From the UHGV virus genome UHGV-1383708: a DNA stretch of 41,056 nucleotides, one strand, 5' to 3'. Position numbers and translations under genes: made by a program. Below are positions 1 through 4,831 of this stretch, one piece after another. Position 1 is the stretch's first letter. The number at the start of each line of letters is the position of its first letter. The stretch comes from a virus. Under the pieces are notes generated by a model. The model was not told the DNA's origin and ran no database searches. It was given only the letters and a program-made list of their open reading frames with translations.

Positions 1-6
1 AGATAA

Positions 7-33
7 AAAACCCTCTGTAGTAACAGAGGGTTT
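7..33 (-). terminator. Displaced original guaA intrinsic terminator (host side of attL)
   Basis: Hairpin CCCTCTG-N6-CAGAGGG followed by U-tract on minus strand; near-duplicate at 40933-40958. Confidence 0.5.
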
Positions 34-58
34 TGTTCATTCATAGTGCAGGGATCAA

Positions 59-668: not shown

Positions 669-1294
669 ACCGCCAGCACCTTACTGGCAGTGATGTATCG
701 CGCGCGCCGGTCGTCGATGCCGTTCCTGCCACCATTGATAATCAGAGTTACACGTACAATATCTCCGGTATACTTCATGCAGCCTTTGCTGGAGAAGAAC
801 CAGGCCGCGCTACGAGCCGCGTATTCGTCCTGTGCCAGCAGTTCAGGATTCTCCAGCAGGTCAACTTTCAGACCGTTTCCGCAGTCACGATAGTTATTCA
901 AACCGGTAATCTGGATAAGCCCGCGCCCACGGTAATTCCAGCCATCGCCGGGAGCATTGTTACCCATGCGTTTGCTGTATACCAGATTTGCGATCGCGCG
1001 CTGGCGCTCAAGTGGCAATGGTGGTTCACCAACGCGGCGCCCCAGTGCATTAGCCTGTCCCTGGGTGAGGCGTCCAGTCCGGACAAAGCTCACCAGTCCG
1101 GTAACGCTGTAGTTGAAATTCTCCTGCAACCTGGTGAACCCCCCAGACTCATGCCCAACTTGAGCAATAAACATTGCCTGATCTTCTGCCTTGCTGATAC
1201 CAAACTCTTTCATCGCAGAAGTTATATGCGAGAACCAGCGAGCGGCCAGCGCCTCGCTAATACCAGCAGCTCGCTGGAATTGTTTAATCTCCAT
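665..1294 (-). CDS. Endolysin, glycoside hydrolase family 19-like
   Basis: 209 aa from MEIKQF; motifs QVGHESGGF and [22 protein letters not shown]. Confidence 0.75.
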
Positions 1295-1592
1295 GTTTAG
1301 ACCTCGATATTTTGAAAATCTGAACAACGTTACCGCGTGTTTTAATAACCGCGGCAAGCATGACAGCGTTGATAATGACCTCAGATAAATCCACAGCCAT
1401 TGGCGTGCGTAACCAGATTGCATAGACGACACGAACAGGAATACTGGCCGCAGCAACAATAAGGAAATAAGCAAGCCACCCTCCCCATCTTCGATGTTGA
1501 GAGCCGTTACGCCGGAATGTGACAACGCGAATTGCTATGCCAGTACAAATAACTGCATTGGTGATAAGCAAAAAAAACTCATGCGTTACCAT
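1284..1592 (-). CDS. Putative second lysis membrane protein (holin/antiholin-like)
   Basis: 102 aa; hydrophobic helices; overlaps both neighbours. Confidence 0.45.
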
Positions 1593-1983
1593 CGTCTTTT
1601 CTCCCCGGAATTAACTCGCGTGGATTATCGGAACGGTGATAGAGCCATATACCAATACGCACAGCAACAATTGCTGACACGAATGCGCCAGCTGAGAAAA
1701 CAATCCCTTTTTCAAAAGAGTCCTGCGTGATGGTAGGGATCAGGCTGGCTATGCCGATAAGAATTGATGCTGCTGGTTTATAAAAAAGAAGGCCGCAGAG
1801 AAAGCTAAGCATCGACAAGAGTACACGACGACGAATAGGATACTCTACCGCAGAGGTAACAAAAATTACCGCCCCAGCCAAAGCCCCCAAAGCAACCTCA
1901 GGAGGAACTCCTGCTATCACCGCCGCCAGAGAACTCATGCTAAGCCACTGATTTAAAGTTTCACTGGTTAGTTGAGCTGACAT
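1579..1983 (-). CDS. Putative holin (multi-TM membrane protein)
   Basis: About 134 aa from MSAQLTSE; several hydrophobic helices; first gene of lysis cassette. Confidence 0.5.
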   Translation of the reverse strand: MSAQLTSETLNQWLSMSSLAAVIAGVPPEVALGALAGAVIFVTSAVEYPIRRRVLLSMLSFLCGLLFYKPAASILIGIASLIPTITQDSFEKGIVFSAGAFVSAIVAVRIGIWLYHRSDNPRELIPGRKDDGNA

Positions 1984-2205
1984 GTTTTCCACCGTTTATA
2001 TGCATAACTACCTCCTGAATAGTAAAGGCATTACGCATGATAAACCATTTATGGTTTTTTGTTACCCATGCATTGTCAATCCCCTTCCTTTCATGTCGAT
2101 AATAAGGCTTGCCTTTTACATAACTCTGAAGAGATTGCAGTACAGAAATGATTTAAAATATAGAGGCTTAGTTGAATTCCGCGCCATTTGATGGCGCGGT
2201 AGCAG

Positions 2206-2520
2206 TCAAATATAGAAATAAACACCAAAACAAACAGTAACAGGAACAACAAAGTCAAACAGGCTTCCAACATCCCATACGCGCGGATCAAAACCGCCCC
2301 ACCACGGCATATTCATACGCTTGCCATGCCCGAACATTTCAATCCAGCGATATTCTGCCTGGGTGTGTTCACGCGCAATGAAGAACGTACAACCAGCTAT
2401 CGCTCCGTAAGCCCAGTTTCCGGTAAAAAGGCCAATCAGTATCTGTGCGGCCACAGCACAAAGCGCATGAAGGAAAGGTGTTATATCCATTGCAATAAAA
2501 TGTCCGGTTCTATATTCCAT
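2206..2520 (-). CDS. Small polytopic membrane protein (104 aa), function unknown
   Basis: Two or three predicted TM segments; between tailspike and lysis genes. Confidence 0.5.
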   Translation of the reverse strand: MEYRTGHFIAMDITPFLHALCAVAAQILIGLFTGNWAYGAIAGCTFFIAREHTQAEYRWIEMFGHGKRMNMPWWGGFDPRVWDVGSLFDFVVPVTVCFGVYFYI

Positions 2521-2530
2521 GCATTTAATC

Positions 2531-4831
2531 CTACTTCGTTAATATTTTAATCAAATCAATATTGCTTCCTTCTGATATTTCAGAAGGAACACTACCTGAT
2601 AACTTTATTGCATTAGATGAAATTCCTGAAACATCAGAAATCATATTTTTTGCCCCGCTAGTATATGCAACCTTAAAGTCATCATAAGGACCAGAATATG
2701 AAATTTCATCCTGGTTACGCACATATATAGTATTCCCGGACACCGATTTAACAACGTATCTATTTCTTAATATATTAACCTTAACATCAGATGCATCTTT
2801 TACATAACAGGTAACACCTGATGCTATATTTTCCATTTTGACATCAAGTGATGAATTAAACATCACAGCACCAGACCTGTGGATATTATGATCATCCATA
2901 TTTCTTCGAGGATACGCAGAACTATCCTTATAATATCTTCCGGTAAATCTGATATATTTGAAGGTAATTCCAGATGTATTACCACCCGACAGAATGACAA
3001 CCCTTATTGATTTTACTCCTCCTTTGTCGGTTATCCTAAACTTTGCATTACCGATGTTAGACTGGGTAGTAAAACGACTGTTTTCATCATCCCATGAAGC
3101 CCCTGGAAAACCAATCCCTTCAGGCTCATTTGTAATAACACTGCCATTCTCATCAATTCCATAAACCCTTATGCGGAATGCGCTGACATCAGAAGTAAAT
3201 GCAAACACATCGCCATTCCTGACGCTTATATCACCTGATTCCCAAATTGTCCTGAAGTTACGTCCAATAGCAAAACTACCATTAACAAGATGAATTAAAT
3301 TTCGCACACTTTTTACATCTGTAACATAATCAGGTGTATCTGAACTTCCCATATTAACGCTTGATAAAAATGGCGTTTTCTCACTCACTGAAAAAAGCGA
3401 CACTTCATTAGTTAGTTCTTCCTGAATATGATATACAGCATTTCCATTACCATTATCAGTGACAGTTACAAGATTGTTTGGGTTATATGGTTCATTGGTA
3501 TATGCAGAAAAGCTAAGCCATGATGCCTGAACAGAATTATTCCACGTATAACTACCAAAATTAATTCTTTGTGTGTCATCTGGGTTGTCTGGTCTGCGCT
3601 CAAAACGGAGTCCGTAAAAATGATTATTATTACCACGCTGAATGTCAATAACCCCAGTATTCTCCATCGTTCCACCAAAAAACTTGTTGTGATTATGTGA
3701 ATACGGATTATCAGCAATAATCACATTATTTGTCCTGTTTAGGTAAAACTTGTTTTCGTTTATCCAACCTCTAACTACACCAAGAAAATGAATTGTATCG
3801 ACCTTTTTCAGGTTAAAGGTTGAGTAGGCTATAGAATAATCTGTTTCATATACTGAATCATCAGAGTTTGCATATAACTGTAAGTAGTCGCAACGCTCAA
3901 TGTTAATATGCTGCCCTTTTGCCCCGATAATACGAATATCCGGTGTCGTTTCAGATGAAATACCAGAATTTCTGATAATCGTTCCGAAGTTTTGTCTTGG
4001 GTTGTTAGGGTTTGATGCATTCCCGCCAAGCAATACCCCTATCCCTGAGTGGGATATGGTAAAAACAGCATTGGTCATTTCGAGGCTGACATTACGAAGA
4101 TTTAATGTCTCCGTAATAATAAAATTACCTTCCGCTCGTAATGTTCTGGATGATTCTCGTGCATATTCTGCAGCCAGAATCAATGCAGATGTATCATCTG
4201 TTATACCATCGCCTTTTGCCCCAAAATCGCGAACACTAACGGTGTCTCTCATCTTATCCTGGAACGTTCGGTATACTGCTCCAGAACCATACTGAATAAA
4301 CCAACCAAAACCACCAATAACTCCGGCGATTGCAGCATCGACATAATTACGCATTGAGCGATTATTTACAGCGTCCTGCTCAAGTGATGGATCGGCAAGG
4401 TTAGATATTCTGTTTTGCTTTGCATCGTAATATTTTGCAAGCAAAGATGGTTTCATCAATGCACGTCTGAACCACCCAAAACATCGCTGGATCAGCATCG
4501 TCAGGTAGTCAAATGCATCCTCATGAACTTCGGGGAAAAATTTTCCCTGATTGCGAAGATCAGTCTCCTGCACCACATCAAGCACACGCTCTATCGTGAT
4601 TCGCCAGCCAGCAGCAAGCGGCGACGGAAGAACCACTGCACCGCCACTATAAGTTCCCGCCCCTGTTACCGTATAACCAGCATCCAGCACTAGTTTTGTA
4701 ACGTTACCGTTAAGGTCAGACACCTGAACAACCAGGTCGGATTTTTTGAAAATACGGAAGGTATACGGAAATGATGTCGTAACGCCGTTACCTGTGTATT
4801 CGTTGTGGTCAACTTCGGTTGAGACCGTCAT
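2531..4831 (-). CDS. Tailspike / receptor-binding protein
   Basis: 766 aa; N-terminus MTVSTEVDHNEYTGNGVTTSFPYTFRIFKKSDLVVQV recalled as conserved particle-binding domain; AT-rich Asn/Ser/Gly-rich C-terminal part; GGAGA RBS. Confidence 0.8.
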   Translation of the reverse strand: MTVSTEVDHNEYTGNGVTTSFPYTFRIFKKSDLVVQVSDLNGNVTKLVLDAGYTVTGAGTYSGGAVVLPSPLAAGWRITIERVLDVVQETDLRNQGKFFPEVHEDAFDYLTMLIQRCFGWFRRALMKPSLLAKYYDAKQNRISNLADPSLEQDAVNNRSMRNYVDAAIAGVIGGFGWFIQYGSGAVYRTFQDKMRDTVSVRDFGAKGDGITDDTSALILAAEYARESSRTLRAEGNFIITETLNLRNVSLEMTNAVFTISHSGIGVLLGGNASNPNNPRQNFGTIIRNSGISSETTPDIRIIGAKGQHINIERCDYLQLYANSDDSVYETDYSIAYSTFNLKKVDTIHFLGVVRGWINENKFYLNRTNNVIIADNPYSHNHNKFFGGTMENTGVIDIQRGNNNHFYGLRFERRPDNPDDTQRINFGSYTWNNSVQASWLSFSAYTNEPYNPNNLVTVTDNGNGNAVYHIQEELTNEVSLFSVSEKTPFLSSVNMGSSDTPDYVTDVKSVRNLIHLVNGSFAIGRNFRTIWESGDISVRNGDVFAFTSDVSAFRIRVYGIDENGSVITNEPEGIGFPGASWDDENSRFTTQSNIGNAKFRITDKGGVKSIRVVILSGGNTSGITFKYIRFTGRYYKDSSAYPRRNMDDHNIHRSGAVMFNSSLDVKMENIASGVTCYVKDASDVKVNILRNRYVVKSVSGNTIYVRNQDEISYSGPYDDFKVAYTSGAKNMISDVSGISSNAIKLSGSVPSEISEGSNIDLIKILTK

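What the first reader, a model, noticed from the sequence alone, without database searches (positions are those of the whole stretch)
1993..2520. Small polytopic membrane protein and AT-rich hairpin-containing intergenic region between tailspike and lysis genes
Directly downstream of the tailspike gene is a 104-aa membrane protein of unknown function, followed by a 213-bp AT-rich intergenic region with a GC hairpin (CCGCGCCAT-ttg-ATGGCGCGG, about 2180-2200) before the holin gene. In serotype-converting podoviruses, small hydrophobic proteins next to the tailspike are O-antigen modification factors, so this could be a lysogenic-conversion gene; a lysis accessory role is an alternative.
Basis: inference. 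Interest (0 to 1): 0.4.

Follow-up and report, generated by a model that had tools for sequence, protein, structure and literature searches.

The report
Uncharacterised membrane protein gene after tailspike
A small, widely shared phage gene for a three-helix membrane protein of unknown function sits between the tailspike and lysis genes of this E. coli podophage, in the slot where relatives carry O-antigen-modifying genes, but no evidence links it to O-antigen chemistry or to lysis.

Summary
On the minus strand, a 104-aa ORF (2206-2520; possibly 94 aa from the ATG at 2490) starts 10 nt after the tailspike stop. A perfect 9-bp GC-rich hairpin (2179-2199) lies 6 nt after the ORF stop. A modestly AT-rich spacer (38.5% GC) precedes the lysis cassette.

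The window is an epsilon15/phiV10-like Uetakevirus. The ORF is a real gene (dN/dS 0.15-0.29). Its product has three confident helices and belongs to PHROG 1443 (function unknown). It has no Pfam, NCBIfam, PADLOC, PDB or fold match.

In epsilon15, phiV10, TL-2011b and PAS61 this slot holds O-antigen polymerase, inhibitor or acetylase genes.

Other evidence argues against serotype-specific chemistry:
- There is no homology to any conversion factor.
- The same gene follows unrelated receptor-binding domains.
- It follows tail-fibre genes in lambdoid, P2-like and other prophages, and occurs in 35% of complete E. coli genomes.
- It also occurs in jumbo Aeromonas phages and in sphingomonad chromosomes.
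- Its conserved loop is predicted to be cytoplasmic.

It does not look like a holin. The hairpin lacks a U-tract, so it is not a canonical terminator.

Best reading: an accessory cargo gene co-transcribed with the tailspike and acting on a conserved host inner-membrane target. The mechanism is not proven.

The parts
2206..2520 (-). Gene for a 104-aa three-helix inner-membrane protein (94 aa if translation starts at ATG 2490). It belongs to the uncharacterised PHROG 1443 family. Conserved motif: H18 ... R50-E51-x-x-Q54-A55-E56-Y-R-W ... W82 ... P93.
   Evidence: ORF. phrog_1443, E 3.8e-55. No Pfam or NCBIfam hit. AF2 pLDDT 85.9 with 3 helices. Invariant residues in 68 diverse members. dN/dS 0.15-0.29.
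2179..2199 (-). GC-rich stem-loop (9-bp stem, 3-nt loop) 6 nt after the TGA stop of the small gene, with no U-tract on either strand. Probably a 3'-end structure of the tailspike/small-gene transcript, acting as a non-canonical terminator or an exonuclease barrier.
   Evidence: Conserved in 5 relatives, with loop variants CAA/TTG/TAA. The only stem change is C->T, giving G.U in the minus-strand RNA.
2076..2178 (-). Distal part of the spacer. It is specific to the Uetakevirus lineage that carries the small gene and has no detectable coding capacity.
   Evidence: Only EC.W1-9, phiv142-3 and HEMP4 match it among 50,697 phage records. HEMP4 has a 19-nt deletion here, which would break the 69-aa plus-strand ORF 1982-2191.
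1984..2075 (-). Proximal part of the spacer: the conserved control region of the lysis cassette. It contains the palindrome AACCATTTATGGTT (2043-2056), a -10-like element, and a stem-loop (about 2000-2038) that pairs the AGGAGG ribosome-binding region.
   Evidence: Aligns with the sequence upstream of epsilon15 gp23 and phiV10 p27. The equivalent epsilon15 stretch is annotated as an RNase III processing site. Fold -16 kcal/mol, z -4.4. Promoter-like hits at 2099-2072 and 2065-2037.
2531..4831 (-). Tailspike (766 aa). The N-terminal anchor is conserved in Uetakevirus. The receptor-binding part (aa ~183-761) is 51% identical to Vectrevirus tailspikes and ~30% identical to Pasteurella phage fibres.
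1579..1992 (-). First gene of the lysis cassette: a holin-like membrane protein (PF16931) homologous to epsilon15 gp23. It probably starts at ATG 1983.
1284..1592 (-). Holin (PF05449).

Best explanation
The ORF is a functional accessory ('cargo') gene. It encodes a ~94-104-aa three-helix inner-membrane protein of a widespread, uncharacterised family (PHROG 1443).

The gene occupies the variable slot at the distal end of the receptor-binding-protein module. This kind of place collects host-surface and exclusion genes in several phage types: the conversion slot of Uetakevirus, the position after the side-tail-fibre genes of lambdoid prophages, and the position between tail-fibre-assembly and sheath genes of P2-like phages.

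In this phage the gene is read as the second gene of the tailspike transcription unit. The gap is 10 nt and it has its own AGGA ribosome-binding site. The transcript ends at, or is stabilised by, the GC hairpin 6 nt after the stop. The lysis cassette downstream has its own conserved control region.

Inferred mechanism: the protein inserts in the inner membrane with its N-terminus and its highly conserved 34-residue loop (REHxQAEYRWI...GxR..MPW.GGFD..W) on the cytoplasmic side. It acts on a conserved host inner-membrane or cytoplasmic component. The effect would be of the exclusion or envelope-remodelling type, benefiting the infected or lysogenic cell or the phage. It is not a serotype-specific O-antigen enzyme and not part of the lysis machinery.

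Shown: a real gene under purifying selection, membrane topology class, family distribution, gene order, independence from the receptor-binding domain. Inferred: co-transcription, role of the hairpin, orientation in the membrane, and the exclusion-type function.
For: - Real gene: dN/dS is 0.15-0.29 among E. coli copies. The core motif is invariant across 68 diverse members.
- Family size: 431 clusters at 50% identity, and the 150 best listed are 58-146 aa with no added domain. There are 970 clusters at 90% identity, all unnamed.
- Membrane protein: AF2 pLDDT is 85.9 with three helices.
- Orientation: mean K+R is 5.35 in the big loop and 0.57 in the N-terminus, against 0.03 in loop 1 and 0.57 in the C-terminus.
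- Cargo behaviour, Uetakevirus: the gene is present in the window, phiv142-3, EC.W1-9, HEMP4 and the HB37 and N1131 prophages behind different receptor-binding domains. It is absent from ZX5, phiV10 and epsilon15.
- Cargo behaviour, horizontal transfer: a ~250-nt core is 92-94% identical at the DNA level in lambdoid phages.
- Cargo behaviour, other phage types: the gene lies on the same strand directly after tail-fibre or J-like genes in E. coli lambdoid prophages and a phage-plasmid, an Aeromonas P2/HP1-like prophage, Comamonas, another enterobacterial prophage and Halomonas phiHAP-1.
- Upstream neighbours in gamma- and beta-proteobacteria are dominated by tail and tail-fibre PHROGs.
- Abundance: 1905 of 5426 complete E. 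coli genomes carry it, with a median of 2 copies.
- Transcription unit: the gap is 10 nt with no terminator in between. A stable conserved hairpin follows the stop. The lysis control region is shared with phages that lack the gene.
Against: - No experiment or homology assigns any function.
- Exclusion proteins of temperate phages are normally expressed from the prophage. No convincing promoter of its own was found here. In lambdoid prophages a canonical terminator sits immediately upstream of the gene. Both point to late expression.
- Homologues in jumbo Aeromonas phages sit next to a helicase/terminase-like gene. Homologues in alphaproteobacterial chromosomes sit among housekeeping genes with no conserved neighbour. 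Neither distribution is explained by a phage-competition role.
- The strongly conserved polar motif with H, R, E, Q and E could instead be a catalytic or ligand-binding site.
- The hairpin lacks a U-tract, so termination there is not established.
- The membrane orientation rests only on the positive-inside rule.
Confidence: 0.4

Rival explanations
1. Lysogenic-conversion factor. The protein alters O-antigen or capsule synthesis, for example by inhibiting or redirecting a host membrane enzyme such as Wzy, Wzz or WaaL. This would resemble the small inhibitor of epsilon15 or Iap of phage D3, and would exclude phages that use the same receptor.
For: The gene occupies exactly the slot that carries O-antigen genes in epsilon15, phiV10, TL-2011b and PAS61. 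In two of these the conversion gene is on the same strand as the tailspike. Small phage proteins without enzyme folds can alter O-antigen, as shown for the Gnarl proteins (PMC12373910). The protein is small, hydrophobic and located in the inner membrane.
Against: - No similarity to the epsilon15 inhibitor, to Gnarl2 or to any Pfam O-antigen family.
- The same gene follows unrelated receptor-binding domains.
- This window's tailspike resembles capsule-type depolymerases of Vectrevirus and Pasteurella phages rather than an O-antigen spike.
- The family is 55-65% identical across genera with unrelated O-antigens.
- It occurs in sphingomonads, which from general knowledge lack LPS, and in jumbo phages.
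- The conserved loop is predicted to be cytoplasmic.
- No promoter of its own was found.
Confidence: 0.2
2. Lysis-accessory protein (holin, antiholin or timing factor) that belongs functionally to the downstream lysis cassette.
For: It is a ~100-aa protein with three transmembrane helices, like class I holins. It lies immediately upstream of two holin-family genes, an endolysin and a spanin. It is probably expressed late with the tailspike.
Against: - It has no hydrophilic charged C-terminal tail; the protein ends inside helix 3.
- It matches no holin family in Pfam or PHROGs. hhalign probability against both holins of the window is below 1%.
- It is separated from the cassette by a hairpin and by the cassette's own conserved control region.
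- Uetakeviruses without it have the same lysis cassette.
- In lambdoid, P2-like and phiHAP-1 contexts it is not adjacent to lysis genes.
- A strongly conserved polar loop is atypical of holins (general knowledge).
Confidence: 0.1
3. Late function tied to the receptor-binding proteins. One option is masking or reducing receptors on the producing cell so that progeny are not trapped. Another is a membrane-associated helper for fibres, particularly those with the S74 self-cleaving chaperone domain.
For: In E. coli lambdoid prophages and in an Aeromonas prophage the gene directly follows a fibre gene with a Peptidase_S74 domain. In some loci the start overlaps the upstream stop, with gaps of -1 to -8 nt. 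It is co-oriented with tail genes wherever it is phage-borne.
Against: This window's tailspike has no S74 domain. Upstream partners are very diverse. Chromosomal and jumbo-phage homologues have no fibre neighbour. Fibres fold in the cytoplasm and no membrane helper is known (general knowledge).
Confidence: 0.1
4. Small membrane enzyme or transporter subunit with a host-physiology role unrelated to phage competition, captured from bacteria and spread by phages.
For: The invariant residues are polar (H18, R50, E51, Q54, E56), lie in or next to the membrane and span the whole family. Stand-alone copies sit among housekeeping genes in many alphaproteobacteria.
Against: At ~95 aa with three helices it is very small for an enzyme. 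There is no fold or sequence relative of known function. No neighbour is conserved that would suggest a pathway.
Confidence: 0.15

Closest known systems
Serotype-conversion genes in the same slot of Uetakevirus: the epsilon15 O-antigen-ligase-family gene plus the 66-aa alpha-polymerase inhibitor, phiV10 Oac, the TL-2011b O-acetyltransferase and the PAS61 O-antigen acetylase
   Same: Identical genomic slot between the tailspike gene and the gp23-like first lysis gene. Membrane proteins. Variable presence among close relatives.
   Different: No sequence similarity. The protein is not an acyltransferase or a Wzy-like protein. It is not linked to one receptor-binding domain. It is tightly coupled to the tailspike gene (10 nt). 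In epsilon15 and phiV10 the conversion genes are on the opposite strand, and in epsilon15 an annotated canonical terminator follows the tail-fibre gene.
HK97 gp15 moron (superinfection-exclusion inner-membrane protein inside the tail operon)
   Same: A small hydrophobic protein gene inserted between late structural genes, on the same strand, followed by a hairpin. It is an accessory gene absent from relatives.
   Different: No homology (hhalign probability 0.4%). gp15 is 62 aa. No promoter of its own was found here. The hairpin here has no U-tract. Exclusion activity is untested.
Accessory genes after the tail-fibre genes of other temperate phages (the P2 Z/fun position; cor of phi80/N15/HK022), cited from general knowledge
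   Same: The location is directly downstream of tail-fibre genes. In phiHAP-1 the homologue lies between the tail-fibre-assembly gene and the sheath gene.
   Different: Cor is a lipoprotein and Z/fun is unrelated in sequence. No sequence comparison with them was run here, so this is a lead rather than a test.
Gnarl proteins (small phage proteins that alter O-antigen without known enzymes; PMC12373910)
   Same: Small accessory proteins with a possible cell-surface effect, found in temperate and lytic phages.
   Different: No similarity to Gnarl2/Mu gp7. Gnarl3 acts by binding the host enzyme GalU.
Class I holins (three transmembrane helices, about 100 aa)
   Same: Size and number of helices; late expression; proximity to the lysis cassette in this phage.
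   Different: No charged C-terminal tail, no family match, and a conserved polar loop. It is not next to lysis genes in most phages.

Membership tests
PHROG 1443 (uncharacterised phage protein family) | Significant full-length match to the family profile | tested here: met
   E 3.8e-55; residues 11-104 match profile positions 1-94 of 97.
PHROG 1443 (uncharacterised phage protein family) | Family-wide motif H...RE..QAE...W...P and a length of about 95-105 aa | tested here: met
   H18, R50, E51, Q54, A55, E56, W82 and P93 are invariant or nearly so in 68 diverse members, and all are present in the window protein.
Phage O-antigen modification proteins (Oac/Acyl_transf_3, GtrA/B/C, Wzy-like, epsilon15-type polymerase inhibitor) | Sequence or profile similarity to a known member | tested here: not met
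   No Pfam or NCBIfam hit. BLASTP against the epsilon15 inhibitor gives no alignment.
Phage O-antigen modification proteins (Oac/Acyl_transf_3, GtrA/B/C, Wzy-like, epsilon15-type polymerase inhibitor) | Location in the conversion slot next to the tailspike gene | tested here: met
   Same slot as in epsilon15, phiV10, TL-2011b and PAS61.
Phage O-antigen modification proteins (Oac/Acyl_transf_3, GtrA/B/C, Wzy-like, epsilon15-type polymerase inhibitor) | Changes the O-antigen of the lysogen or of expressing cells | not testable with these tools
   Needs LPS gels and adsorption assays.
Holins | Small protein with one or more transmembrane helices | tested here: met
   Three helices in 104 aa.
Holins | Hydrophilic, highly charged C-terminal domain | tested here: not met
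   The protein ends ...CFGVYFYI inside helix 3. The family's mean C-terminal tail is 5 residues with 0.57 K+R.
Holins | Match to a holin family, or conserved adjacency to an endolysin gene | tested here: not met
   No holin family in Pfam or PHROGs. hhalign against both holins of the window gives probability below 1%. Homologues elsewhere follow tail-fibre genes, not lysis genes.
Moron (independent transcription unit added between two phage genes) | Present between two genes that are adjacent in related phages | tested here: met
   ZX5 has the tailspike followed directly by the gp23-like gene. The window and four or five relatives have the extra gene.
Moron (independent transcription unit added between two phage genes) | Own promoter upstream | tested here: not met
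   The gap is only 10 nt (or 40 nt). No promoter-like site is adjacent, and the sites inside the tailspike gene are no more frequent than in shuffles. The scan is a simple consensus search, so weak promoters could be missed.
Moron (independent transcription unit added between two phage genes) | Own terminator downstream | tested here: inconclusive
   There is a stable conserved hairpin 6 nt after the stop, but without a U-tract.
Superinfection-exclusion inner-membrane proteins (HK97 gp15, P22 SieA, T4 Imm) | Homology to a known member | tested here: not met
   hhalign against HK97 gp15 gives probability 0.4%. No Pfam, PHROG-annotated or PADLOC match. SieA and Imm were not compared directly.
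Superinfection-exclusion inner-membrane proteins (HK97 gp15, P22 SieA, T4 Imm) | Blocks infection by other phages after adsorption | not testable with these tools
   Needs plating-efficiency and DNA-entry assays.
Rho-independent (intrinsic) terminator | GC-rich stem-loop | tested here: met
   9-bp stem with 7 G-C pairs, -16.6 kcal/mol.
Rho-independent (intrinsic) terminator | U-rich tract immediately 3' of the stem | tested here: not met
   The minus strand reads AAUUCAACU after the stem and the plus strand reads UAGCAGUCA. The terminator scan did not report the site. The annotated epsilon15 terminator after the tail-fibre gene does have AUUUUUUAU.

The most novel reading that the evidence does not exclude
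PHROG 1443 is a new class of phage-spread inner-membrane effector. Its invariant H...RE..QAE site, together with the Trp-rich MPWWGGFD segment, would form a minimal catalytic or ligand-binding centre at the cytoplasmic face of the membrane. This centre would act on a universally conserved envelope component, for example a lipid carrier or a conserved inner-membrane protein used by phages for DNA entry. That would give broad exclusion or envelope remodelling independent of serotype, and would explain why one third of E. coli genomes carry one or more copies.
Probability: 0.2. Interest if true: 0.6.

Novelty: new member of a known kind. Interest (0 to 1): 0.35.

Why it matters
The gene itself is not new. 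Near-identical copies are in deposited phages and prophages, and the family is catalogued as PHROG 1443.

The family is abundant yet has no Pfam model, no name and no known function:
- 1905 of 5426 complete E. coli genomes carry it, often in several copies.
- It is present in classic lambdoid phages such as phage 21.
- It is strongly conserved from enterobacteria to Comamonas and Aeromonas.

Its consistent place behind receptor-binding-protein genes, in a slot where relatives carry surface-conversion genes, makes it a reasonable candidate for an undescribed phage-host or phage-phage interaction factor. If it proved to be an exclusion or envelope-modifying factor, that would bear on prophage-mediated phage resistance in E. 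coli and on phage therapy host-range predictions. As it stands, this is a well-defined 'unknown', not a discovery of a new system.

Tried and rejected
- Homology tests against specific proteins were all negative: the epsilon15 alpha-polymerase inhibitor, Mu gp7/Gnarl2, HK97 gp15 and the window's two holin-family proteins.
- Rfam search of 1500-3000: no match.
- The hairpin as a repeated element: it is unique in the window.
- The 69-aa plus-strand ORF 1982-2191 in the spacer, which has the orientation of the epsilon15 and phiV10 conversion genes: rejected. It overlaps the conserved lysis control region, and HEMP4 carries a 19-nt deletion inside it.
- The distal spacer as a remnant of another gene: no distant DNA match outside the same lineage.
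- A conserved operon partner in alphaproteobacterial chromosomes: none found.
- Literature: no paper was found on this protein. Searches by accession, by phiv142-3 and by context are. The phiv142-3 study did not examine orf5, and orf5 is not in its list of serum-induced genes. Tai/Ati systems were considered and are unrelated in location. The epsilon15 genome paper and the Hf4s paper were not held.
- My first crude gene caller failed on GC-rich loci. It was replaced by targeted ORF extraction.
Full report

The left end of the window reads, on the minus strand:
- tailspike, 2531-4831, 766 aa
- a 104-aa ORF, 2206-2520
- a spacer
- a PF16931 'putative holin' homologue, 1579-1992
- a PF05449 holin, 1284-1592
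- a GH19 endolysin
- a DUF2514 Rz-like gene

The closest deposited sequences are the Uetakevirus phages EC.W1-9 and phiv142-3 (96-97% over the lysis-to-small-gene stretch) and HEMP4. A prophage in E. coli N1131 is 96% identical and has the same tailspike length. The window is therefore an epsilon15/phiV10-like temperate podophage of E. coli.

The small ORF starts 10 nt after the tailspike stop and is preceded by AGGA. The family, the PHROG profile and the PGAP annotation of near-identical prophages all start at the second methionine, the equivalent of 2490, giving 94 aa. The ten extra residues are modelled with pLDDT below 50. The start is therefore uncertain.

The hairpin is at 2179-2199, with a perfect 9-bp stem and a 3-nt loop. 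It folds at -16.6 kcal/mol, z = -4.8, and is unique in the window.

The spacer has 38.5% GC against 48% for the window. This is a mild enrichment in A+T and is no lower than the receptor-binding part of the tailspike gene.

2. The gene is real and encodes a three-helix membrane protein of an uncharacterised family

The protein matches phrog_1443 (function unknown) at E 3.8e-55. It matches nothing in Pfam, NCBIfam or PADLOC.

A word-indexed search found 554 clusters at 90% identity. A profile search found 970. All are called hypothetical, uncharacterised or 'transmembrane protein', and none carries a Pfam domain. An exhaustive HMM search of 1.84 billion representatives found 431 clusters. The 150 best listed are 58-146 aa, mostly about 100 aa, and none carries an added domain.

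Pairwise dN/dS among E. coli copies is 0.15-0.29.

AlphaFold2 with a 30-sequence alignment gives mean pLDDT 85.9 and helices 14-33, 36-62 and 84-103.

Across 68 diverse members, R50, E51, W82 and P93 are invariant and H18, Q54, A55 and E56 are nearly invariant. The consensus of the loop is GREHxQAEYRWI...GxGxR..MPW.GGFDPR.W.

Counting K+R over the family gives 5.35 in the loop between helices 2 and 3 and 0.57 in the N-terminus. Loop 1 has 0.03 and the C-terminus 0.57. By the positive-inside rule, the N-terminus and the conserved loop face the cytoplasm. This is an inference, not a measurement.

3. Where the gene lives

In Uetakevirus it is an optional insert.
- ZX5 has the tailspike followed directly by the gp23-like gene.
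- epsilon15 has an O-antigen-ligase-family (Wzy-like) gene and a 66-aa 'alpha polymerase inhibitor' on the opposite strand.
- phiV10 has oac on the opposite strand.
- TL-2011b and PAS61 have an O-acetyltransferase or acetylase on the same strand.

The small gene is found behind different receptor-binding domains:
- The window tailspike and the phiv142-3 fibre share only the N-terminal ~220-270 residues.
- HB37 has a GH28-related spike.
- The window's receptor-binding part is 51% identical to Vectrevirus spikes and ~30% identical to Pasteurella phage fibres.

Outside the genus, a ~250-nt core of the gene is 92-94% identical in many lambdoid phages, including Tritos, 2G7b and mEp460_4F5. A protein search adds phage 21 and wild lambda-like isolates at 81-87% amino-acid identity. 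In Tritos, in E. coli prophages and in a 106-kb plasmid it is the last gene of a module: Stf N-terminal protein, a ~90-aa protein, a 346-aa fibre with a Peptidase_S74 chaperone domain, then this gene.

Further contexts:
- In an Aeromonas P2/HP1-like prophage its start overlaps the stop of a 964-aa S74 tail fibre.
- In Comamonas it follows a 2520-aa J-like protein.
- In another enterobacterial prophage it follows a 555-aa fibre and two tiny ORFs.
- In Halomonas phiHAP-1 it lies between the tail-fibre-assembly gene and the sheath gene.

Upstream neighbours in gamma- and beta-proteobacterial genomes are dominated by tail and tail-fibre PHROGs.

1905 of 5426 complete E. coli genomes carry the gene, with a median of two copies. 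58 genomes have the Uetakevirus arrangement including the spacer.

The family is not confined to tail modules or to temperate phages:
- 237-kb Aeromonas phages PS1 and PS2 have a shorter homologue after a helicase/terminase-like gene.
- In 22 alphaproteobacterial loci, mostly sphingomonads, the neighbours are housekeeping genes with no conserved partner. Only one locus has a phage tail gene.

4. The spacer and the hairpin

The proximal ~90 nt of the spacer (1984-2075) aligns with the sequence upstream of epsilon15 gp23 and phiV10 p27. It contains the palindrome AACCATTTATGGTT (2043-2056), a -10-like element and the ribosome-binding site. It folds into a stem-loop that pairs the AGGAGG region (-16 kcal/mol, z -4.4). 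The epsilon15 record annotates this stretch as an RNase III processing site. This part belongs to the lysis cassette and is independent of the small gene.

The distal ~100 nt and the hairpin occur only in the lineage that has the small gene, so they came in with it or arose with its insertion. They are not part of the lambdoid copy, where the sequence diverges right after the stop.

Among five relatives the stem is conserved and the loop varies (CAA, TTG, TAA). CAA and TTG are reverse complements, which suggests flipping of the palindrome. The single stem change is C to T in the 3' arm. It keeps a G.U pair in the minus-strand RNA but would give an A-C mismatch in the plus-strand RNA. This is weak support (one event) for function as RNA in the sense of the gene.

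Neither strand has a U-tract after the stem, and the terminator scan did not report the site. In contrast, the annotated epsilon15 terminator after the tail-fibre gene has AUUUUUUAU.

I therefore read the hairpin as a 3'-end structure of the tailspike/small-gene message: an inefficient or factor-dependent terminator, or an exonuclease barrier. This is inferred.

5. Expression

No promoter-like site lies between the tailspike stop and the ORF. Sites inside the tailspike gene are no more frequent than in shuffled sequence.

In lambdoid prophages a canonical terminator (GGGGC-CGAGC-GCCCC followed by TTTTATT) lies directly upstream of the gene with no promoter after it. In several other loci the gene overlaps or abuts the preceding tail gene.

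The simplest reading is late expression by read-through with the tail-fibre genes. Expression in the lysogen is neither shown nor excluded. The only lysogen transcript list available, for phiv142-3, contains the fibre gene orf6 but not orf5, which decides nothing.

6. What it most likely is

Shown:
- The gene is functional and under purifying selection.
- It encodes an inner-membrane-type protein.
- The gene is mobile among three tail morphotypes.
- It sits at the distal end of receptor-binding-protein modules.
- It is independent of receptor specificity.

Inferred: it acts through the conserved cytoplasm-facing loop on a conserved host component. The most plausible class of effect is exclusion or envelope remodelling.

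The reasons for this inference are the kind of slot it occupies (conversion genes in Uetakevirus; from general knowledge, the Z/fun position in P2-like phages and cor in lambdoids), its small size, and its membrane location. I give this about 0.4 overall. The descriptive part is far more secure than the mechanism.

Rivals:
- An O-antigen or capsule conversion factor (0.2). The slot supports it. Weakening it are the lack of homology, the independence from the receptor-binding domain, the cross-genus conservation, the presence in LPS-less sphingomonads (general knowledge) and the predicted cytoplasmic loop.
- A lysis accessory (0.1). It fails the holin criteria other than size.
- A late function related to the fibres (0.1).
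- A small enzyme or transport function unrelated to phage competition (0.15).

7. Comparison with known systems and novelty

By position, the closest known things are the Uetakevirus conversion genes. By architecture, the closest is the HK97 gp15 moron: a small membrane protein gene followed by a hairpin inside a late operon. The protein is homologous to neither.

It is a member of an already catalogued but uncharacterised family. Near-identical genes are already deposited, so nothing here is new as sequence. The open question is the function of an abundant family.

Interest is moderate to low (0.35). A specialist would not be surprised by an unknown membrane protein in this slot. However, the family's abundance, its sharp conserved motif and its consistent association with receptor-binding modules make it a worthwhile and easily testable target.

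Noticed in passing
window 2566-2589 (minus strand, inside the last ~20 codons of the tailspike gene): Perfect 10-bp inverted repeat TTCCTTCTGA/TCAGAAGGAA with a 4-nt loop. As RNA it folds at -17.2 kcal/mol, z -5.3. It lies 35-58 nt upstream of the tailspike stop, just before the small gene, and could affect translation or RNA stability at the junction.
   Followed up: partly
window ~2000-2038 and 2043-2056: A conserved stem-loop pairs the AGGAGG ribosome-binding region of the first lysis gene, and the palindrome AACCATTTATGGTT lies just upstream. Both are shared with epsilon15 and phiV10. The epsilon15 record annotates the equivalent stretch as an RNase III processing site.
   Followed up: partly
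window 2188-2190 versus L094 (E. coli N1131 prophage): The hairpin loop is CAA in the window (minus strand) but its reverse complement TTG in the 96%-identical N1131 prophage and in phiv142-3. This suggests that the palindrome flips.
   Followed up: no
window 2531-4280 (tailspike receptor-binding part): Residues ~183-761 are 51% identical to tailspikes of Vectrevirus phages and ~30% identical to Pasteurella multocida phage fibres. GC is 37% against 48% for the window. This looks like a horizontally acquired module, possibly capsule-specific rather than O-antigen-specific.
   Followed up: partly
window 1983-1992: The ORF list starts the holin-like gene at GTG 1992 (137 aa). Alignment with phiV10 and epsilon15 indicates ATG 1983 (134 aa) as the start.
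   Followed up: partly
window 5-34: CCCTCTG-TAGTAA-CAGAGGG is flanked by an A-run on one side and a T-run on the other. It looks like a bidirectional intrinsic terminator about 150 nt past the Rz-like gene (read). The terminator scan did not report it.
   Followed up: no
L075 4637-5959; L004 and L097 (E. coli lambdoid prophages): The family member is the last gene of a three-gene module: a ~90-aa phrog_1361 protein, a 346-aa fibre with a Peptidase_S74 domain, then the membrane protein. The module has replaced most of a tail-fibre-assembly gene, whose 3' fragment remains downstream next to pinR/pinQ.
   Followed up: partly
L101 4929-5192 (Aeromonas phage PS1, 237 kb): A shorter homologue (87 aa, ~43% identity over helix 2, the loop and helix 3) sits in jumbo Aeromonas phages next to a helicase/terminase-like gene. 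The family is therefore not restricted to temperate phages or to tail modules.
   Followed up: partly
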